Under the pieces are notes generated by a model, which did no database searches, was not told the DNA's origin, and saw only the letters and a list, made by a program, of their open reading frames with translations. A stretch of 64,000 nt of DNA from a virus: positions 1-64,000 of IMG/VR virus record IMGVR_UViG_3300009128_000011; one strand, given 5' to 3'. Shown piece after piece: positions 27,404 to 60,671 of this stretch. Position 1 is the first letter of the stretch; each line of letters starts with the position of its first letter. A program made the translations under genes and the position numbers.

Positions 27404-29335
27404 GTGCCCTCCCCCCCCGACGTCCAGGCCGACCTGCGGGCAGCGGTCGACGCCCTCCCGGAGGAGGACAAGCAGCGGCTGGCGGCGGCCTTCCGGGAGG
27501 ACGCCGAGCGGCGTCGACAGGAGCAGGCGCAGCACGAGGAGCGGGAGAGGGAAGCGCGCAAGGCCCGGGGACGCCGGGATCCCGCGTGGTTCCTGCGGTG
27601 GTACCTGCCCAAGGCCTTCCGGCTGAAGTTCGGCCGCTTCCAGCTCGACCTGATCGACGACTTCAAGGAGCTGATCGAGGCGTCGCTGGCGAAGGAGGAG
27701 CGCGTCGGCCCTGCACTTCGGCTCGTCGAGGAGGACTGGCGGGAGGTCGATACGGAGCCCGACGACGGGGAGGACTACACCGAGGAGGAGCTGGAGGCGC
27801 TCCTTGAGCAGGCAGCCGGGGAGGTGCCGCACTGCGAGGTCGCCGTGTGCCCACGCTTGCACGGCAAGACTTCGTTGCTGGAGGGGCTCGTCCTGTGGTG
27901 CGTGGCGTATGGGCTGCGCAACTTCATCCTGTTCTGTTCGTCGATCCAGGAGCAGAGCATGGACCGCCTCAGCGTGGTCATGGGCCACATCGAGAGCAAC
28001 GACCGTCTGCACGCTGACTTCCCCGAACTGCGCCCGGGCAAGATCAAGTGGACGAACAAGGACGGTGTCACGTCCACGGGGATCCGCCTCAAGGCGTACG
28101 GGATCCTCAACCGGATTCGGGGGGTCAAGCACGGGGAGCTGCGCCCCGACCTCGCCCTCGGTGATGATATCGAGGACACGGTCAACGTCGAGACGGAGCT
28201 CCAGCGGCGCAAGGGGCGCACGTGGCTGACCCGGGTCCTCATGCCGGCGCTCGACAACCTGCGGGGCGTCCTGTTCATCGCCGGGACCATCCTCCACTAC
28301 GACGCCCTCCTGGCCCGTCTGGTGGACGAGGACGAGCACTTCCCGGGGTGGCGCAAGCGGCGCTACAAGGCACTCAACAAGGACGCCAACGGGAAGTTGT
28401 GGGCTCTCTGGCCCTCTCGGTGGCCGGTGCCCGCGCTGCTGGCACAGCGGTCGGCCAAGACGGGGGTGGGTGCAATCGCCTTCGCCTGCGAGTACCAAAA
28501 TGACCCGATCAGCGACGAGACGACCCTCTTCCAGATGACATGGCTCCGCGGTGGCCGCGACCGCGGCCGCGCCTTCGCCGAGAGCTACGAGGCGGCGAAG
28601 GCGACGCTGGGCGGGGTACCTCCCCTCGTCATGGTCCCGGGGTGCGACTTCGGGTGGGTCCACGACAAGAAGAGCGCGGAGGAGCGGGACTCCAACTACA
28701 CGGTGTGCATCACCGTCGCCGTCCACCCCGAGACCCGCCACCGCCACATCCTGCGCATCTACCGGGACCGCGGGCGCACGTCACAGCAGTACATCGACGC
28801 CATCGCCGACGAGGTGCGGGTCACCTACCCGGACCCGGTGGAGTGTCCGCGCCACCGCCTGGCGGTGGAGACCGTGGGGCTGCAGCGGCAGCTCTACGAG
28901 CTCGGTTTCCAGGAGCAGACCGACCTCAGCGTGGTCGGGATCAACACGGGCACCGAGAAGGCCGACCCCTACGAGGGGATCCCGATCTTGTCGGCGCTGT
29001 TCGAGGGCGGCCAGTACCACACGCCGTGGCCGGTCGGTGACGACCCGGAGTCGGTCCGGCAGCGGGAGCTGGTGCAGACGCTGGAGAACGAGCTGTGGGG
29101 GCTCGGCTCCGAGGCGCACGACGACATGGTCCTGGCCCTCTGGTTCACAGAGGTGGTGATTCGCCGTATGCTGAGGGTCTACGACGCCGCCCTCCGACAG
29201 GCGGCCCAGCGGGAGGAGCAGCCCAGTGGCAGACCGCAGCAGCCGCCGACACCCGCCCCAGCTCGAGAGCCGCAAGGCCCAACAGGGCAGCGGGTCATCC
29301 CCACCAGGCCCATCGGGGTCCGTCGTGTCGGGTAG
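27404..29335 (+). CDS. terL: Terminase large subunit
   Basis: PRLHGKTS Walker A, RPDLALGDDIED Walker B, GTILH, EYQNDP, GCDFG, HDDMVLAL. Confidence 0.93.
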   Translation: MPSPPDVQADLRAAVDALPEEDKQRLAAAFREDAERRRQEQAQHEEREREARKARGRRDPAWFLRWYLPKAFRLKFGRFQLDLIDDFKELIEASLAKEERVGPALRLVEEDWREVDTEPDDGEDYTEEELEALLEQAAGEVPHCEVAVCPRLHGKTSLLEGLVLWCVAYGLRNFILFCSSIQEQSMDRLSVVMGHIESNDRLHADFPELRPGKIKWTNKDGVTSTGIRLKAYGILNRIRGVKHGELRPDLALGDDIEDTVNVETELQRRKGRTWLTRVLMPALDNLRGVLFIAGTILHYDALLARLVDEDEHFPGWRKRRYKALNKDANGKLWALWPSRWPVPALLAQRSAKTGVGAIAFACEYQNDPISDETTLFQMTWLRGGRDRGRAFAESYEAAKATLGGVPPLVMVPGCDFGWVHDKKSAEERDSNYTVCITVAVHPETRHRHILRIYRDRGRTSQQYIDAIADEVRVTYPDPVECPRHRLAVETVGLQRQLYELGFQEQTDLSVVGINTGTEKADPYEGIPILSALFEGGQYHTPWPVGDDPESVRQRELVQTLENELWGLGSEAHDDMVLALWFTEVVIRRMLRVYDAALRQAAQREEQPSGRPQQPPTPAPAREPQGPTGQRVIPTRPIGVRRVG

Positions 29336-53218: not shown

Positions 53219-53812
53219 GTGCCCGCCCGCGGCGGCCTGCGACTCACCGGGGCGTGGAAGCGCTGGACCAAGCTCATCGATCCCCAGGACTTTGAGCGGC
53301 GCCTCCGACGGAACATCCGGCAGGCGACGATCAAGAACGGTCTCCTCGTCGTTCGGGAGATCCGGCAGGGGATCAAGAACCGGGACTACGAGCCCAACGC
53401 CTTCTTGACGCTGGCGGCCAAGGCGCCGAAGGACAAGCCGCTCGTCGACAGCGGGGACTTGTTCAAGGCGATCACGAAGGTGGTCCTGGACGACTTCCGC
53501 GTCTTCGTCGGGGTCAAGAAGACGGCGAAGGGGAAGGAGGGGGAGGCGCTGGTCAACATCGGCGCAGCGCTCCATGAGGGCTACACGGTTCGGGTGACGC
53601 CGGCGATGCGAGCCGCGGTCTTCGCCCGAATCCACGGCAACCAGCAAGGGCGAGCCATCATCAAGGCCGACCCGCCGGCGGGCCCGGCAGCGAAGGTGTG
53701 GGTCATCCCCCCTCGCCCCTTCATCGAGGCGGTGCTCGAGCGCAAGGACATCCAGGAGCGGGTCAGGCGGAACTGGTCCCGGGCGGTGGAGCGGGCGCTG
53801 GTGGGGAAGTAG
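53219..53812 (+). CDS. Virion morphogenesis/neck protein
   Basis: KPLVDSGDL, LHEG, IPPRPFI. Confidence 0.75.
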   Translation: MPARGGLRLTGAWKRWTKLIDPQDFERRLRRNIRQATIKNGLLVVREIRQGIKNRDYEPNAFLTLAAKAPKDKPLVDSGDLFKAITKVVLDDFRVFVGVKKTAKGKEGEALVNIGAALHEGYTVRVTPAMRAAVFARIHGNQQGRAIIKADPPAGPAAKVWVIPPRPFIEAVLERKDIQERVRRNWSRAVERALVGK

Positions 53813-53816
53813 GGGG

Positions 53817-54290
53817 CTACTTCGGCACCTTCCACCGGTCGGTAATCACCCGGACGGCGGCGAGGCAGAGGGCGTGCGGTAGGCAGTCGCCCTCGACGGT
53901 CCAATCGGCGCTGTAGGGCTCCATGTACACGCTCACCTGCTCCCAGAAGTGGATCGCCACGTTCCCCTCGTCGTCGAAAGTCCAGATCCAGTGCGAGGGC
54001 GAGTAGATGCGCTGTAGTCGCCTCCACACCTTCCAGCCGGCGGCGAGGTTGGTCGAGAACTGGTCCGGCATGTCCCCGGGCCGGATCCCGTAGGTGTCGG
54101 GCTCTATGCGATCCGGCAACCATGTCCGGGCCTGTACCCAGGTCGGGTCTTCGTCGGCTTCGTGCGTCCAGTGCAACACGCGCTTGACGAAGCGGCCCGG
54201 GCGCTCGAACAGGTAGGACTCGATCCAGGCGTCCAGTTCGACGCCGGCACGGAGCTGGTGTGGCTCGGGGTGGGGGAGCCGGGGCATCAT
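53817..54290 (-). CDS. Phage ABA-sandwich (BC1872-like) protein, island 4
   Basis: ELDAWI...FSTNLAAGWKV...LPHALCLAA. Confidence 0.6.
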   Translation of the reverse strand: MMPRLPHPEPHQLRAGVELDAWIESYLFERPGRFVKRVLHWTHEADEDPTWVQARTWLPDRIEPDTYGIRPGDMPDQFSTNLAAGWKVWRRLQRIYSPSHWIWTFDDEGNVAIHFWEQVSVYMEPYSADWTVEGDCLPHALCLAAVRVITDRWKVPK

Positions 54291-54498
54291 GGCGCCTCCA
54301 GCAGCCGCACCTTCCGCAGCCACCGCGGGGACGCGCAGACCACCTCGTGCAGGTAGCCCGCCGGCACGTCCCAGAGGACGGGGACCGAGCGGCACCGTCT
54401 CGGAGCCTGGCAGGCCATGCAGTGGTCCACCGTGCCGAAGCCGGCGCACTCGGGGTCGACATCCTCGACGCGCTCGCCGGGGGTGAAGTCGGTCGCCC

Positions 54499-54759
54499 TC
54501 ACGACGCCTTCTTCCTCCGGTCCGGGTGGTCCAGCCGGGCCTGATCGACCTCGTCCCGCAGGCGGTAGGACCAGTGCTCGGGGGGGTCGAGGGCGAGTTG
54601 CTGCAGGTCGCGCTCGAACGATCCGGTTGGGGTCGCCAGCCCCCGCACGTACTTCGACGCCTGCGTGTGGGAGCAGCCGAGCACCTGGGCGAGGCCGCGC
54701 TGGGTGAGGCCCGTCACCTGGCAGGCGGTGCGGGCGAGGGTGGGGGTCTTGGTCTTCAT
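54499..54759 (-). CDS. XRE-HTH protein, island 4
   Basis: GLTQRGLAQVLGCSHTQASKYVRG...P. Confidence 0.75.
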   Translation of the reverse strand: MKTKTPTLARTACQVTGLTQRGLAQVLGCSHTQASKYVRGLATPTGSFERDLQQLALDPPEHWSYRLRDEVDQARLDHPDRRKKAS

Positions 54760-56496
54760 GGGGTCTCGTTCTCCTTGGTGGTGGGATCCCAGCTCCGGAC
54801 GCACATGATGGTCGAACCGTCGGGCAGCCCTTCGTTGAGCAGTGCGCAAACGAGTGCGCGCACCCCGGGCTGGTCGGCCACTTCGAGCCGGTCCAGAAGC
54901 ACGGGACAGACGGAAACGGCTCTGCGCTCCCTGGCCTGCTCCTCTCCTTCCTGGAGCGTGGCGTAGAACCGGATGCGGCGAGTCCGCACGACCCGCGGCG
55001 TCCCGTCCGGACTCGGGTGAGCGCTCGGGCGCTCTTCCTGCCAGGTGACTCGGTAGACGGTGGCAGTCATCTAGTTGTCCCTCCCCAGCCGCAGGGGGCA
55101 GGTGTCGCAGGACGGCAGCCCCAACCGGAGGCGGATGACCATCTCCTCCTCGTCGGTGAGACCGGCGTCTTGGATGAGGCGCTCCACCTCCTCTCGCCCC
55201 TCGGGGGTGCGGGCCTTGGCGCGCAGCTCGTCGAGCCTGGTGTCGTCGTCGTTCTTCGTGGCCATGGCTATGCCAGCGCCTCCACCGTGCCCTCGAACGC
55301 CTGGCCCTGGAAGGTCCACTCGCCGTCGTCCCAGCACTCGTAGGCGGCAGCGGTCTCCCGCACGAACTCGGCCAGCGTGTAGGCCGGCCCGTCGTCGAGC
55401 ATCACGTCGAAGCCGTCGGGCTCGTCCAGGGTGGTGATCCGGTGGGTGGGCTTCCACCCGTCGAGCACGCCGGGCGCCCACTCGTAGGTCTCGTCGCCGT
55501 CGATGGCCTCGTCGATCAGCCGGTCCTGCTCGGCGCGGTAGGCGATCTCGAAGGTGCGCACCGTCTCGGGCGTGGGCTCCGGTCCGGTGAGCTCGTGCAG
55601 CCCGTTCTCGAAGTCGCCGTCGTAGGGGTCGTGGGGCTCGGCGGGGAGCCCGACGGCCTTCGCGTTGCCCTGGGCGCACTCGACGGCGCAGGTGACGATC
55701 AGCTCGGGGAGGAGGGGATCCTCCATCCAGATCAGCCCCGCGTCCTCGGCGGCGACCTCCCGGGCCTCGGCCCGCGTCAGGTCGTCGCAGGCGCCCTCCT
55801 CGGGGTCGGCGTACTTGCAGAGCAGCAGGTTGTGCTCCTCCGCGTGGTCGATGGCGGCGTGTCCGGTCAGGGTGCAGGTGGCGTCCACGGTGTCCTCCTC
55901 GGTGTCGTGCATCCCGGACGGGCCGAAGCCCGTTTCGTCCGCCGCCGCGGACTCGTCAGCGGGCGACGTCCCAGTCCATCCCCTCCCGGCGCCCGTTCTC
56001 CGTCCACTCGGCCCAGCGGGGGAGGTCGGACGGCCTGAGGTCGGCGGCCTGGAGGATGCGCATCCGCACCCCCGCGTCCGTCGCCCCGCACAGGTTGACG
56101 GGACCCTCGACGAACCGCTTGCAGATGCGGGCGTTGGGGCCGTAGGCGATGGTGATGTTGGCGGCCTTGCTCATCTTCTCCTCCTCGGTGTCGTAGCCTC
56201 CTACCCCGAAAGCCCCGACCCTTGCGGGTACGGGCGGGGGAGGGGGAGGGGGGCGGTCTAGGCGGCGAAGTCGGGGGAGGAAGGTCTGCATGCTACGCCA
56301 GCGCCTGCACCAGCGGGGCGTAGAAGCCGCCGCTGTCCGCGTCCACCTGGTTGCTGTAGTCGACCTCCCACCCATCGGGGATGACCGCGTCGACCTCCTC
56401 GGCGTCCACGCCGTCCGCGTACCAGACGCGGGGGCCGACGGCGGCGTCGAGGTCGATGATGACGGCGTCGAACTGCTGCCGGGGCGTGGCGTCCAT
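54756..56496 (-). CDS. Island 4 small genes (56293-56496, 55956-56174, 55268-55888, 55071-55265, 54756-55070; also 54287-54502)
   Basis: Packed minus-strand ORFs with RBS motifs downstream of module copy 4. Confidence 0.7.
55909..55968 (-). ncRNA. Hammerhead ribozyme (type I topology)
   Basis: CCCG CUGACGA GUCCGC-GGCG-GCGGAC GAAA CGGGC-UUCG-GCCCG UC/CGGG: complete core plus three stems. Confidence 0.9.
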
Positions 56497-56595
56497 GTCG
56501 TGCTCCGTGTTGTTGTGTTCCCTGACCATGCCTATATGGTACCAACCCCCTTCGTGGACGTCAAGGGGAAAAGCGCACGGTGGGCAAAAAAGATC
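56496..56595 (-). promoter_or_regulatory. 100-bp promoter/leader module, copy 4
   Basis: GATCTTTTTTGCCCACCGTGCGCTTTTCCCC TTGACG-17-TACCAT, 33-nt leader. Confidence 0.85.
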
Positions 56596-56651
56596 GCCGG
56601 CCAGCAGCCCCCTGGTCGCGCCCCGGCCGCGTCGTGTAGGATGGGAACCTC

Positions 56652-57950
56652 GTGGCGCGCACTCTCACCACCATGCTGGTCGACCTCGAAGTGCGTTCCC
56701 GCCGCGCCGACCGCTTCGCCGGCCTCGACTGGTTCACCACCCGCGACCGCCTGCGGTGGTCCCGCCTCGCCAACGCGCAGCCGGGGGTCTATGACTCCGA
56801 CCTGCGGGAGTTCTTCGGCGACCGAATCACCCTGCGGCCGACGACCCCCTTCTCGGGCACCTACACGACGGGGAGCGGGGGCGCTGCCTACTTCTGCACC
56901 TACCGGCGCACCGTGCCCGAGGCGAAGTCTTGGGCGGCCATCGAGCTGCTCTACGCCGAGCCCGAGCCCACGACCAACGTCCGGTTCCTCCTCGGCGACG
57001 CCACCGCCAGCCTGTACCGGTGGGACGGCGCGGCCTGGCAGGTGACCGACCCCGCGGTCTCCGGCAACTGGAACACCGAGGCCCAGCTCGTCGAAGGCTT
57101 CCCCTCCTGGACCGGCACCGTCGTCCGCGTGGCCTTCCGGCTGGCGACGTCGGACGAGGACATCACCCCGACCGTCTACGGCGCCCGGGCCTTCGCCAGG
57201 ATCTGGAGCCCGAGCCCGGTCGAAGACTTGGTCCTGCGGACGGTCATGCCCTACTTCGCCACCGCGGCCACGCCGGCCAGGTACAGCGAGGACGCCGACG
57301 GGTCGGGGACGGTGGACCTGTCCACCATGGTCGAGTACCGGCCGGCGGACGTGACCCCTTTCGCCGTGCACAACGTCACCGACGACCCCACCGAGCAGAT
57401 CGACCTCTTCCAGGCGTGGAACGCCGGAACGTTCCGGGTCACCCTGACCGCTGCGCAGGACGCAGGCGACGAGCTGCTGATCGACATGAACGTCGCCCCC
57501 CTCGTGGCGCGCGCCGCGCATCGCGACTACCTGGAGGTGAGCCGGCTCCCGGCCCTGATCATCCAGGGGGTGGAGGTCGTCGACGAGCCGAGCCGGCACG
57601 TCCCCACCGCGGTCAAGGACCGAGCCGCGCTCACGGCCCGGGAGATCGACCGGCCCGACAACTTCCGGCTGGTGCTGGACGTCCTGGCGGTGGCGGGCTA
57701 CGATACCGAGCTGCAACGGCTGTGCGACGCGGTGGACGCCTTGACGACCTGGGCCTACTCAGGGGTGACCGGAGAGCCTGTATCCGTGCGCCGTCTGGGC
57801 AACTGGACCCCGCGCGACGGGGGCGGCGACAACGTCGTCGACGCGCGGGCCTCCTTCGAGGCGGCCGGGATGATCGCGTACCGCGGCCAGGACACAGCCG
57901 CAGCCCTGCTCAACGAGATGGTGCCAACGGTGGCGGAGAACGCCACGTAG
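56652..57950 (+). CDS. Putative tail completion/terminator protein with extra domain
   Basis: Immediately upstream of sheath; beta-rich. Confidence 0.55.
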   Translation: MARTLTTMLVDLEVRSRRADRFAGLDWFTTRDRLRWSRLANAQPGVYDSDLREFFGDRITLRPTTPFSGTYTTGSGGAAYFCTYRRTVPEAKSWAAIELLYAEPEPTTNVRFLLGDATASLYRWDGAAWQVTDPAVSGNWNTEAQLVEGFPSWTGTVVRVAFRLATSDEDITPTVYGARAFARIWSPSPVEDLVLRTVMPYFATAATPARYSEDADGSGTVDLSTMVEYRPADVTPFAVHNVTDDPTEQIDLFQAWNAGTFRVTLTAAQDAGDELLIDMNVAPLVARAAHRDYLEVSRLPALIIQGVEVVDEPSRHVPTAVKDRAALTAREIDRPDNFRLVLDVLAVAGYDTELQRLCDAVDALTTWAYSGVTGEPVSVRRLGNWTPRDGGGDNVVDARASFEAAGMIAYRGQDTAAALLNEMVPTVAENAT

Positions 57951-57962
57951 CGGAGGACGAGC

Positions 57963-60671
57963 ATGCCAAGCCGCATCTACGGCCCGATCAACGCCCCTGG
58001 AGTCGGGCTCGAGGAGCTCACGACCCCCCGGCCGCCCCAGCCGGGGCAGATCGGGACGAGCTACGTCCTCGGCTCGTACCGCCGGGGCCCCGTGGGCGGT
58101 CCCGGGGTGCCCCCCGTGGCGATCCGTTCCATGGCCGACCTCTGGCGGCGCCGTGGCGTCAAGGTCGACGCGGCCGCGGATCACTGCGCCGAGCAGGCCT
58201 GCCGGGCCTTCCTCGATATGGCCGAGGGCGGCGGAGCGCTGTACACCGAGCGCGTCTGCGACGGGACCGAGGTGGCCTCCACCTGGACCCTGCTCACCCG
58301 CCGGTGCCCCCGCGGCGTCCTGTGCCGCAACGACGACACGCTGACCCCGACGGCGGTCACGGCCGTCTGCGAGTGGGCGGGCCGGGACGGCGGCAAGCAG
58401 AAGATCCTCGGCGGTCTGCTTCCCCTGCTGGCGAACATCACGGTCACGACCGTGGCGACCAGTAAGACGATGCTGCTCAACGAGCTGCGCGGCGGCACGC
58501 TGACCCTGCGGGGCGTGAGCGCCCGCACCTACACCATCGTGAGCAACACCACGGCCGGCGTGATCAGCGTCGAAGCCGATGCCACGATGGATACCGACAT
58601 CGCGGCCGACGACCCGACGAACCTCTACTGGATGGTCGAGGTCGTCAACCTGGAGACCGACGAGGAGAAGGGGGCGACCCGGCGTGCCGTCGCCCTGCGC
58701 GTTTCCCCGCGGGGGGCCAGGCGCCCCGCCATCGAGTGCGGCCTGCGGGTCAAGCTCGACCGCTTCGAGCAGCAGCACTACCCCGACCTGTCCATGGTCG
58801 CCGGCATCCCCGGACGCTCCGAGATCGCCGGACGGGTCAACAACGACAGCAACAACCACGAAGTCACGCTGGTCAACGCCTGGACGGGGGGAGACCAGGC
58901 GGACGCCCGGCCCGCCAACTGGGCCGGCATCGCCACCGCGGTCTCCGCCGGCGGCCTGACCCTGCGAATCGTCGAGTGGCAGCGGACGGTGGGCAACGCG
59001 ACGGGGTGGATCGACACCTTCACCTACGGCACCGACCTGCGCCCGCAGACCATCACGCTGACCTTCCTGACGCCGACCACCTACACGGTGGCCACCGACC
59101 TGGGGATCGAGGACATCCCGAACGCGGGGGCGCTGGGGGCCAACGCGCTGGACGCGCTGCACCCGCAGCTCATGGGCTTCACCGTGACCGCCGGCGCCGT
59201 GGCCTTCCAGGCCGGCGACGTCATCGTGATCCGGGTCAAGGCGCTCCCCACCGACGGGCAGATGGTGGGGGCCCGGCTCTGGCCGGACGGCGACGGCACC
59301 AACGCCGGCGTGAGCGTCCCGATCCAGTCCAGCACCTCCCGCACCGTGACGGTGCCGACGAGCTACGACCTGACCTCTCTGGCGAGCGTCCCCCTCCAGG
59401 CGGGGGCGACGACCACCGCGGCGGGCCCGTGGAACACCGCGGCCGGCTCCCACGGTGGTCCGGTCACCCTGACGGGGATCTCCGTCACCCAGGACGGGAC
59501 GGCGGTGGCGGTGGCCGACTACACCTTCCCCGACACGGTCAACCTGACCGCTGCCGCCCTCAAGGCCGACTGGGACGCCCACGCTGCCTGTCTGCTGGCG
59601 ACGATCAACGCCGACGGGACCGTGACGCTGGGCAGCGAGGGGACCGGCGGCCTGGTGAGCTTCACCTACACGGGCGGCACGGCCATCGGGATCCTGATGC
59701 CGGCCGCTGCCACCTGGACCGGCACCGACGGCTCCCTGATCCTGATCGAGTACGACCAGGAGGGGCAGGCGGGCTACGACGGCATCGCCGCCCTGGCCGC
59801 CGCGGACGTCGTCGGAGCGCTCGACCAGAACGGCAGCATCGCCGAGATCCAGGAGGACAACACCGGCCTGATCGTCATCGCCGCCCCCGGCTGGGCGTTC
59901 GACAACGTGGTGGCCGCGGGCAACCAGCTCGCCGCGGACATCAACGCCGTCTTCCTGCCCGAGTACGCCATCACCGTCCTGACCGAGGCCGCTGCCGTGG
60001 CCAAGATCTCGGACGACTGGGGGCTCGACGACTTCATGTGGCCCTTCTGGCCGTCGTGGGGCTTCGTCGACGCCCGGGACGGCGCAGGAGGGCAGGAGCA
60101 GGTCTCCCTGGCTGGCCACATCATGGGGCTGCAGGCGCGCTCCTGGGCCAGCAACGGCATGGGCAAGGCGCCGTCGGGGACCTCGACGAAGCTGCGGGGC
60201 GTCCTGCGTCTGCTCAAAGCGAACGACGACGTGCTCCCCGATGCCGAGCAGCTCAACCTGACGGGCATCCGGACCATCACGAAGCGCGGCACGACCGACT
60301 TCATCATCTGGGGCGACCGGTGCCCCGGGGAGACCGAGGTCTGGGTCCACAAGCGGGCGATCAAGGGGCAGGTGGGGCGGGAGCTCGTCTACCCCGGCAA
60401 CTTCGCCCAGTACATCTTTGAGACGAACGACACCACCCTGTGGGGCCGGCTCAACGTCGCCCTGCGCCAGCTCCTGCTGCCGCACTACGAGGACGGCTGG
60501 TTCGACTCGGATCGGGAGTTCGACGACGCGGTGCAGATCCAGATCGACGACGAGAACAACACCGCGGCCACCATCGCCGCCGGCCGGGTCATCGTGGACC
60601 TCGGCCTGTACCTGCCGAACACGGCCGAGCAGATCTGGTTCCGGCTCTCCGAGCTGGGCGTGGAGATCTAG
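57963..60671 (+). CDS. Contractile tail sheath protein
   Basis: APGVGLEE, G...RGPVG.P, IAAPG, LAGHIMG..AR, KAPSG, LNLTGIRTI, IWGDR, IFETND..LW, AEQIWFRL. Confidence 0.92.
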   Translation: MPSRIYGPINAPGVGLEELTTPRPPQPGQIGTSYVLGSYRRGPVGGPGVPPVAIRSMADLWRRRGVKVDAAADHCAEQACRAFLDMAEGGGALYTERVCDGTEVASTWTLLTRRCPRGVLCRNDDTLTPTAVTAVCEWAGRDGGKQKILGGLLPLLANITVTTVATSKTMLLNELRGGTLTLRGVSARTYTIVSNTTAGVISVEADATMDTDIAADDPTNLYWMVEVVNLETDEEKGATRRAVALRVSPRGARRPAIECGLRVKLDRFEQQHYPDLSMVAGIPGRSEIAGRVNNDSNNHEVTLVNAWTGGDQADARPANWAGIATAVSAGGLTLRIVEWQRTVGNATGWIDTFTYGTDLRPQTITLTFLTPTTYTVATDLGIEDIPNAGALGANALDALHPQLMGFTVTAGAVAFQAGDVIVIRVKALPTDGQMVGARLWPDGDGTNAGVSVPIQSSTSRTVTVPTSYDLTSLASVPLQAGATTTAAGPWNTAAGSHGGPVTLTGISVTQDGTAVAVADYTFPDTVNLTAAALKADWDAHAACLLATINADGTVTLGSEGTGGLVSFTYTGGTAIGILMPAAATWTGTDGSLILIEYDQEGQAGYDGIAALAAADVVGALDQNGSIAEIQEDNTGLIVIAAPGWAFDNVVAAGNQLAADINAVFLPEYAITVLTEAAAVAKISDDWGLDDFMWPFWPSWGFVDARDGAGGQEQVSLAGHIMGLQARSWASNGMGKAPSGTSTKLRGVLRLLKANDDVLPDAEQLNLTGIRTITKRGTTDFIIWGDRCPGETEVWVHKRAIKGQVGRELVYPGNFAQYIFETNDTTLWGRLNVALRQLLLPHYEDGWFDSDREFDDAVQIQIDDENNTAATIAAGRVIVDLGLYLPNTAEQIWFRLSELGVEI

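What the first reader, a model, noticed from the sequence alone, without database searches (positions are those of the whole stretch)
55909..55968. Hammerhead ribozyme whose catalytic core contains the upstream gene's stop codon
Seen: the minus strand has the full core CUGACGA...GAAA...GUC with a 6-bp stem II, a UUCG-capped stem III and CCCG/CGGG stem I. The UGA of CUGA (55958-55956) is the stop of ORF 55956-56174. Predicted cleavage between 55917 and 55916 lies about 16 nt before the GAGGAGG RBS of the next gene. Established: this consensus defines self-cleaving hammerheads, which leave a 5'-OH. Inference: the island-4 polycistron processes itself, and a terminating ribosome covering the core could couple cleavage to translation.
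Basis: partly seen in the sequence, partly recalled or inferred. Interest (0 to 1): 0.8.

Follow-up and report, generated by a model that had tools for sequence, protein, structure and literature searches.

The report
Phage hammerhead ribozyme holding a stop codon
A small self-cutting RNA (a type I hammerhead ribozyme) sits between two genes of an uncultured high-GC phage and contains the first gene's stop codon; this layout proves to be common among phage hammerheads, so it is a good new example of a known kind.

Summary
On the minus strand, 55965-55911 is a complete type I hammerhead: core CUGACGA/GAAA/GUC, stems of 4, 6 and 6 bp, and a UUCG cap on stem III.

- **Rfam:** RF00163 scores it 32.4 bits, just under the cut-off of 34. 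All 11 hammerhead matches in five other viral records also fall below it.
- **Independent model:** a covariance model built only from 50 hammerheads of other viral contigs finds it at 55.6 bits (E 8.8e-15). The next hit in the window scores 15.9 bits.
- **Chance control:** 0 of 300 shuffled windows contain such a motif.
- **Gene context:** third-position GC shows real minus-strand genes on both sides. The core UGA (55958-55956) ends a 72-aa gene. The predicted cut (55917|55916) lies 16 nt before the next gene's GAGGAGG.

The layout is not special. Among 157 distinct phage hammerheads, 133 have an upstream ORF ending nearby. In 28 of those the stop is the core UGA, and in 67 it lies within 12 nt before the core. 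Earlier notes of this scan reported the same on other DNA.

Most likely it cuts the operon mRNA, as Perreault et al. (2011) proposed for prophage hammerheads. Gating by translation remains untested. No RNA data and no variant of the locus were available. It is a new member of a known kind, of modest interest.

The parts
55911..55965 (-). Type I hammerhead ribozyme (whole match)
   Evidence: RF00163 32.4 bits over model positions 1-45; model R1, built from 50 other phage hammerheads, 55.6 bits, E 8.8e-15
55953..55959 (-). Core strand C3-A9, CUGACGA; its UGA (55958-55956) is the stop codon of the upstream 72-aa gene
   Evidence: Sequence; ORF list
55937..55952 (-). Stem II, 6 bp (GUCCGC/GCGGAC), loop GGCG at 55946-55943; closing pair G10.1-C11.1
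55933..55936 (-). Core strand G12 A13 A14 A15.1 (GAAA)
55918..55933 (-). Stem III, 6 bp including A15.1-U16.1, UUCG loop at 55927-55924
55916..55917 (-). Predicted cleavage site: after C17 (55917), before C1.1 (55916)
   Evidence: Position within the hammerhead consensus (alignment); cleavage itself not tested
55960..55963 (-). Stem I 5' strand CCCG, pairs with CGGG at 55916-55913
55913..55916 (-). Stem I 3' strand CGGG
55909..55911 (-). Candidate pseudoknot partner (UGC) of loop II GCG (55945-55943): two Watson-Crick pairs plus one G-U
   Evidence: Other members of the subfamily have GCG/CGC at the same place. Complementarity between loop II and the 3' tail is enriched in the whole sample
55904..55907 (-). 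Possible distal extension of stem I (CGAC with GUCG at 55967-55964) across a 5-nt bulge
   Evidence: Lowers the computed energy from -27.4 to -30.6 kcal/mol; no comparative support
55956..56174 (-). Upstream gene, 72 aa, no known family
   Evidence: GC3 0.97 against 0.73 for the in-frame stretch upstream of the ATG; no Pfam or PHROG match; one 97%-identical cluster only
55894..55900 (-). Shine-Dalgarno GAGGAGG of the downstream gene, 16 nt after the cut
55268..55888 (-). Downstream gene from the GTG at 55888 (206 aa, pI 4.05); the ORF list extends it to an ATG at 55912 that has no ribosome-binding site
   Evidence: GC3 0.98; charge; 446 domain-level relatives at E up to 0.001; no Pfam family
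56536..56564 (-). Promoter-like site (TTGACG, 17 nt, TACCAT with TG) ahead of the first gene of the minus-strand block
   Evidence: 1 found, 0.1 expected. A consensus match only

Best explanation
This is a genuine type I hammerhead self-cleaving ribozyme of the phage-associated kind. It lies in the junction between the second and third genes of a small minus-strand operon (about 56529 to 54499 or beyond) that sits between the tail-completion and tail-sheath genes of a 72-kb high-GC myovirus-like phage. When the operon is transcribed, the RNA folds into the three-helix junction and cuts itself after C55917.

The upstream product keeps the 72-aa gene with its stop codon and ends in the two stable hairpins of stems II and III, with a 2',3'-cyclic phosphate. 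The downstream product starts with a 5'-OH 16 nt before the Shine-Dalgarno sequence of the acidic 206-aa gene. The two halves of the message can then differ in stability and translation.

Shown here: the sequence and fold membership, the coding frames, and how common the layout is. Inferred: transcription, cleavage, and its consequences. The stop codon in the core most likely reflects tight packing of gene and ribozyme. It implies that a ribosome on the last codons and the folded ribozyme exclude each other.
For: The core is complete and all three stems are present. RF00163 scores 32.4 bits, E 9.8e-8 on the genome. Model R1, built without this sequence, scores 55.6 bits, E 8.8e-15, with the next hit in the window at 15.9 bits. 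Held-out members of the same subfamily score 54.6-60.7 bits. None of 300 shuffles gave a hit.

The search pattern specified only the core and 4 bp of stem II, yet 106 of 119 viral loci it retrieved had the rest of the hammerhead. Over 50 such sequences the three helices pair in 92.2% of cells, against 66.9% when shuffled, and 14 of 17 pairs change on both sides. The nearest look-alike (L079, 3087-3142) shares the stem I sequence and differs by a compensatory change in stem III.

GC3 of 0.97-0.98 shows minus-strand genes on both sides, with the signal dropping at the ribozyme. There is a promoter-like site upstream and no minus-strand terminator-like site in 53500-57500. The hammerhead-compatible ensemble is about 18% of the computed ensemble before any tertiary stabilisation. 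The 28 nt from cut to start codon is typical (median 36, quartiles 27.5-50, over the 87 of 157 hammerheads with a recognisable downstream gene). Perreault et al. 2011 showed cleavage in vitro for three tandem prophage arrangements and in E. coli for one of them, and proposed mRNA processing (passages read).
Against: There is no RNA evidence of any kind. No ortholog or variant of the locus exists in the collections searched, so there is no covariation at this locus itself: searches found nothing useful, and the contig laid is identical.

The match is below Rfam's curated cut-off. The minimum-free-energy fold is not the hammerhead, and the sequence folds no better than shuffles (z 0.13; MFE -33.4 against -27.4 to -32.9 kcal/mol for hammerhead folds). 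Stem I has only 4 bp, and the candidate tertiary contact is weak (two Watson-Crick pairs plus one G-U), so speed at cellular Mg2+ is uncertain. This is the only hammerhead in the genome, whereas many phages carry clusters.
Confidence: 0.72

Rival explanations
1. Translation-gated ribozyme. A ribosome terminating at the core UGA covers stem I's 5' strand, the core and the start of stem II. Cleavage would then happen only on messages whose upstream gene is not being translated at that moment, and the degree of processing would report translation of the 72-aa gene. This is an added layer on the best explanation, not an alternative to cleavage.
For: The stop codon is inside the core. The layout recurs: in 95 of 133 phage hammerheads with an upstream ORF, the stop is in the core (28) or within 12 nt before it (67). 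The frame ending at the core UGA is the long open one in 41 cases, against 21 and 9 for the other two frames. The computed MFE fold pairs the end of the ORF and the core with the 3' strand of stem II, so melting by a ribosome could reset folding.
Against: Nothing measures cleavage against translation. The same positional pattern follows from gene packing alone: the core offers a ready UGA in one frame, and stem I can hold a stop. My ORF calls are crude (stop-to-stop, at least 60 codons). I found no paper reporting such control.
Confidence: 0.2
2. A chance or decayed hammerhead-like motif that does not cleave. The hairpins would merely act as intercistronic structure, for example blocking 3' exonucleases.
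For: The score is below the Rfam cut-off. The fold is no more stable than shuffles. Stem I is short. It is a single copy in the genome. A second weak match in the rest of the genome (L121, 2557-2619) has a broken core, so hammerhead-like debris does occur.
Against: E is 8.8e-15 with an independent model, and 0 of 300 shuffles gave a hit. Every invariant core base is intact. Its stem I and stem lengths match a subfamily found in other contigs, whose held-out members score the same.
Confidence: 0.06
3. The element acts mainly as an insulator for the downstream gene: the cut gives it a fixed, short leader whatever is transcribed upstream, as engineered hammerhead insulators do.
For: The cut lies 8 nt before a 16-nt initiation region that is identical in front of both flanking genes. 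The leader after cleavage is 28 nt, and the Shine-Dalgarno sequence is not paired in the ribozyme fold.
Against: This is a consequence of cleavage rather than a separate mechanism, and there are no expression data. The comparison with engineered insulators is recalled, not from a call.
Confidence: 0.3

Closest known systems
Hammerhead ribozymes flanking genes in prophages and phages (Perreault et al. 2011, PMC3088659; passages read)
   Same: Hammerhead between small phage genes of unknown function, on the coding strand. mRNA processing is the proposed role. A pseudoknot-type tertiary contact is described for all three types.
   Different: Here there is a single copy rather than a cluster. The text read does not mention stop codons (0 occurrences of 'stop codon' in the main text). 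The supplements were not available.
Rfam RF00163 Hammerhead_1 (type I)
   Same: Full-length match to model positions 1-45 with identical core and stem-proximal bases.
   Different: 32.4 bits against a gathering score of 34, because stems II and III carry longer insertions than the model. All 11 matches at E up to 0.01 in five other viral records are also under the cut-off, at 17.1-31.9 bits.
CCCG/CGGG subfamily of high-GC viral and metagenomic hammerheads (L079, L026/L078, L072, L122-L129)
   Same: Same 4-bp stem I, an A after stem I, the GGCG loop II in most, the tail YGCA, and 5-7 bp stems II and III. In L079 two of the three copies also end an ORF at the core UGA.
   Different: The host genomes are not related to this phage by the tail sheath protein (0 of 5 records). 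The flanking genes differ.
Pseudoknot-containing hammerhead (crystal structure, PMC11300833; search listing and start of abstract only)
   Same: A tertiary pseudoknot in place of the loop-loop contact. My sample shows enriched complementarity between loop II and the 3' tail (34 of 155 with at least 4 Watson-Crick pairs, against 8.7 expected).
   Different: In this locus only two Watson-Crick pairs plus one G-U are possible. The paper's construct was not compared.
Earlier notes of this scan on other DNA (e1-6044132, e1-3481804, e1-6048749)
   Same: Phage hammerheads that begin at or contain the upstream gene's stop codon, with translation control suggested but unproven.
   Different: e1-6044132 and e1-6048749 concern type II hammerheads, and e1-3481804 and e1-6048749 describe a separate locking hairpin. 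Here the hammerhead is type I, with the stop in the core itself.

Membership tests
Hammerhead ribozyme (class) | Invariant core: C3 U4 G5 A6 N7 G8 A9, G12 A13 A14, pair A15.1-U16.1, and H17 (not G) at the cleavage site | tested here: met
   CUGACGA at 55959-55953, GAAA at 55936-55933, U at 55918, C at 55917
Hammerhead ribozyme (class) | Three helices radiating from the core, with G10.1-C11.1 closing stem II | tested here: met
   Stems of 4, 6 and 6 bp, all Watson-Crick; aligned to the consensus structure by two covariance models
Hammerhead ribozyme, type I topology | Stem I open; stems II and III closed by loops | tested here: met
   Loops GGCG and UUCG; the 5' and 3' ends leave through stem I
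Hammerhead ribozyme (class) | Tertiary contact between the stem I and stem II regions (loop-loop or pseudoknot), needed for fast cleavage at low Mg2+ | tested here: inconclusive
   Only GCG (loop II) with UGC (tail) is possible: two Watson-Crick pairs plus one G-U. Relatives have GCG/CGC there, and the contact is enriched across the sample
Hammerhead ribozyme (class) | Site-specific self-cleavage giving a 2',3'-cyclic phosphate and a 5'-OH | not testable with these tools
   No RNA holder listed; needs a bench assay
Hammerhead ribozyme (class) | Helices supported by covariation among relatives | tested here: inconclusive
   Strong at family level, but those sequences were picked by a descriptor that demands pairing. 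No variant of this locus was found. There is one compensatory change against L079
Rfam RF00163 (curated family listing) | Score at or above the gathering cut-off of 34 bits | tested here: not met
   32.4 bits. This is an operational threshold, not a property of the class. All 11 matches in five other viral records also fail it
Phage-associated intercistronic hammerheads | On the coding strand between phage genes, abutting the upstream stop, with a short distance to the next start | tested here: met
   GC3 frames. The stop is in the core, as in 28 of 133. 28 nt to the start, against a median of 36

The most novel reading that the evidence does not exclude
Placing the upstream gene's stop codon inside the hammerhead (core UGA or stem I) is a selected, general design of phage hammerheads that makes cleavage depend on ribosome traffic. 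Untranslated or ribosome-free messages would be cut and re-partitioned, while translated ones stay whole. The ribozyme would then act as a sensor of translation rather than a constitutive processing site.
Probability: 0.18. Interest if true: 0.65.

Novelty: new member of a known kind. Interest (0 to 1): 0.3.

Why it matters
Hammerheads between phage genes have been known since 2011, but their biological role is still open (review PMC6765202, passages read). This locus adds a clean, single-copy, high-GC example in which the stop codon, the ribozyme core, the cut site and the next ribosome-binding site all lie within about 70 nt. That makes it a compact test bed for two questions: whether translation and self-cleavage interfere, and whether cleavage changes the fate of the two halves of the message. 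The side survey suggests that most type I phage hammerheads in the sample overlap or abut the upstream stop, and that many use a pseudoknot between loop II and the 3' tail. Both points can be checked systematically. As an individual finding it is not surprising to a specialist.

Tried and rejected
**Relatives of the locus.** None was found. The 214-aa and 72-aa proteins gave no relative in viral contigs. The word-index search returned only the window's own 214-aa protein, seen on 4 contigs, and one 97%-identical cluster for the 72-aa protein. A search with that 72-aa variant (P0002) found no relative in metagenome contigs. The tail sheath protein gave no relative in viral contigs and only 20%-coverage matches to four Streptomyces phage records (three phages). 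blastn of 55200-56400 against cultured phages gave no match.

**RNA evidence.** No RNA holder was listed. Laying contigs of X2, X3, X5 and X6 showed an identical contig over 54850-56224 in X2 and no informative variant in the ribozyme. X3, X5 and X6 did not cover it.

**Thermodynamics.** The MFE fold is not the hammerhead and z is 0.13. I do not count this against the call, because the sequence is 76% GC and nearest-neighbour energies ignore the junction's tertiary structure.

**Other ribozymes.** There are none at Rfam's gathering score in the window, and none at E up to 1 in 53400-57000 apart from the hammerhead. An 18.1-bit R1 match in the last 8 kb of the genome has two invariant core bases changed, so I rejected it.

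**Function of the downstream acidic protein.** There is no Pfam or PHROG family for it, and no Pfam family for ten of its domain relatives. The Atlas model is poor, with no usable hit. An AlphaFold model with a 117-row alignment reached pLDDT 80 but found no PDB match at E up to 0.001. The idea that it is an ArdA-like DNA mimic therefore has no support beyond its charge.

**Literature.** Searches found no paper describing a stop codon inside a phage hammerhead. Supplements were closed, and Perreault's alignments there might show it.

**Other.** One search was an empty script.

Full report
**Setting.** The window is the first 64 kb of a 72,016-bp virus record rated 100% complete, with 70% GC. 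It has a tail sheath gene at 57963-60671 (phrog_23, E 1e-18) and a tail-completion gene at 53219-53812 (phrog_222) on the plus strand. Its only matches among cultured phages are weak hits to Streptomyces phage sheath genes. Between these two tail genes lies a block of small minus-strand genes.

**The observation.** Read on the minus strand, 55963-55913 is CCCG-CUGACGA-GUCCGC-GGCG-GCGGAC-GAAA-CGGGC-UUCG-GCCCG-U-C-CGGG. This is the complete hammerhead core with three perfect helices of 4, 6 and 6 bp (stem III counted with A15.1-U16.1), in type I topology.

**Is it more than chance?**
- The bare core pattern is expected about once per window, so the core alone proves nothing.
- A descriptor that also demands the three stems hits once in the window and in none of 300 dinucleotide shuffles.
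- Rfam RF00163 aligns it end to end at 32.4 bits (E 2.9e-6 on 501 nt against all families; E 9.8e-8 for that family on the genome). That is 1.6 bits under the curated cut-off, which is why the default scan lists nothing.
- The cut-off is not a good judge here. In five other viral records, all 11 hammerhead matches at E up to 0.01 scored 17.1-31.9 bits, while the 14 control genomes gave no match at that E-value.

**Independent family evidence.**
Of these, 106 had the remaining parts of a type I hammerhead, often several copies per contig.
- I aligned 50 of them, not including this one (A1). The three helices pair in 92.2% of cells against 66.9% after shuffling, and 14 of 17 pairs change on both sides. 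These sequences had been picked with a descriptor that requires pairing, so this shows variety of pairs, not proof of structure.
- The covariance model built from A1 finds 55965-55911 at 55.6 bits, E 8.8e-15, with filters off. The next hit in the window scores 15.9 bits and lacks the core.
- Members not used for the model score 22-61 bits. The four held-out members with the same stem I score 54.6-60.7 bits.
- The nearest look-alike (L079, 3087-3142) shares the six bases before the core and the stem I sequence, and differs in stem III by a G-C to C-G exchange.

**Genes and transcription.** Third-position GC is 0.97 for the 72-aa ORF (55956-56174), against 0.73 for the in-frame stretch upstream of its ATG. 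It is 0.98 for the downstream ORF and 0.97 for the 78-aa ORF at 56293-56529. The overlapping plus-strand ORFs show no such signal, and the periodicity breaks exactly at the ribozyme. So the UGA in the core really is the stop of a gene.

The downstream gene most likely starts at the GTG at 55888, 5 nt after GAGGAGG. The ATG at 55912 lies just 3' of stem I, overlapping the candidate pseudoknot tail, and has no ribosome-binding site. A promoter-like site lies at 56564-56536 on the minus strand, and no terminator-like site lies on that strand in 53500-57500. These are consensus matches only. No RNA run holds the region.

**Fold energetics.** The hammerhead secondary structure computes to -27.4 kcal/mol, or -30.6 with a possible distal extension of stem I across a 5-nt bulge, against an MFE of -33.4. 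Structures compatible with the hammerhead make up about 18% of the ensemble. The MFE alternative pairs the end of the ORF and the core with the 3' strand of stem II.

**How special is the stop codon in the core?** I took the 157 distinct hammerheads (stems of at least 4 bp, duplicates with identical 60-nt flanks dropped, this one included) found in the loci.
- 133 have an upstream ORF of at least 60 codons ending nearby.
- In 28 of those the stop is the core UGA; in 67 it lies within the 12 nt before the core, in or next to stem I; in 27 it lies 13-90 nt upstream; in 11 it lies inside or after the ribozyme. The remaining 24 have no such ORF.
- In contigs of at least 55% GC, 15 of 45 end at the core UGA.
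- Counting only open length, the frame closed by the core UGA is open for at least 60 codons in 41 cases, against 21 and 9 for the other two frames.

The distance from the cut to the next start with a Shine-Dalgarno sequence has a median of 36 nt (quartiles 27.5-50) over the 87 of 157 with a recognisable downstream gene; here it is 28 nt. The layout is therefore typical. After this survey I looked at the scan's earlier notes. Several report the same idea on other DNA, mainly for type II hammerheads.

**Tertiary contact.** In 155 hammerheads, the loop of stem II and the 10 nt that follow the first unpaired base after stem I can form at least 4 contiguous Watson-Crick pairs in 34 cases. Permuted pairings give a mean of 8.7 (maximum 18 in 500). 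For at least 3 pairs the figures are 80 against 42.8 (maximum 57). This fits the pseudoknot described by Perreault et al.. At this locus only GCG (55945-55943) with UGC (55911-55909) is possible, whereas relatives with the same GGCG loop have CGC there. The contact is plausible but weak.

**Mechanism.** The best reading is constitutive self-cleavage of the operon transcript.
- The 5' product retains the stop codon, so ribosomes still terminate normally, and it ends in two hairpins.
- The 3' product begins with a 5'-OH and an unpaired ribosome-binding site.
- From what is known of the ribosome's footprint on mRNA (recalled, not from a call), a ribosome on the last codons must unfold stem I and the core, so folding and termination exclude each other in time. 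Whether that is used for control is unknown.

**Literature.** Perreault et al. 2011 describe clustered hammerheads flanking prophage genes, demonstrate cleavage, and propose processing into gene-length mRNAs; the main text has no occurrence of 'stop codon'. The 2019 review still calls the bacterial and phage role open. Three type II hammerheads near phage-like genes were shown active in cells by cyPhyRNA-seq. Six searches found no paper on stop codons inside phage hammerheads. Supplements were closed.

**Verdict.** This is a new member of a known kind, of modest interest.

Noticed in passing
window 55893-55908 and 56179-56194 (minus strand): The two genes flanking the ribozyme share an identical 16-nt translation-initiation region (ACGACACCGAGGAGGA). 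A third copy with one mismatch lies at 27774-27789 (+). None of 100 shuffles gave 3 matches.
   Followed up: partly
window 55268-55888 (minus strand): The gene just after the cut encodes a very acidic protein (pI 4.05; 49 D+E against 10 K+R in 206 aa). It has two confidently modelled small domains (residues about 12-66 and 152-213; pLDDT 80). Each domain has many small stand-alone relatives (446 hits at E up to 0.001), but there is no Pfam family and no PDB match. Perreault et al. noted the anti-restriction gene ardA right after a hammerhead. A DNA-mimic role here is only a guess.
   Followed up: partly
window 55071-55265 (minus strand): An unlisted 64-aa gene (MATKNDDD...) follows the acidic gene. 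GC3 is 0.90-0.97 in its frame, and it is hidden inside a longer spurious ORF in the list. From memory, its C-terminal part looks like a sigma-factor region 4 helix-turn-helix; this was not tested.
   Followed up: no
L121 2557-2619 (minus strand), about 66456-66518 of the genome: Hammerhead-like match to model R1 (18.1 bits) with stems but two invariant core bases changed (CUGACGC, GAAG). It is either chance or a decayed copy.
   Followed up: partly
viral loci L002-L120 (for example L088 with 8 copies, L004 with 7, L019 with 5): Within one phage, the many hammerhead copies share the same stem I sequence while stems II and III differ. Loop II and the 3' tail are complementary far more often than in permuted pairs.
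   Followed up: partly
window 56175-56292 (minus strand): The 118-nt spacer between the 78-aa and 72-aa genes is very C-rich (runs of CCCCC/CCUCCCCC) and ends in a small GCAA-capped hairpin. No Rfam match at E up to 1.
   Followed up: no
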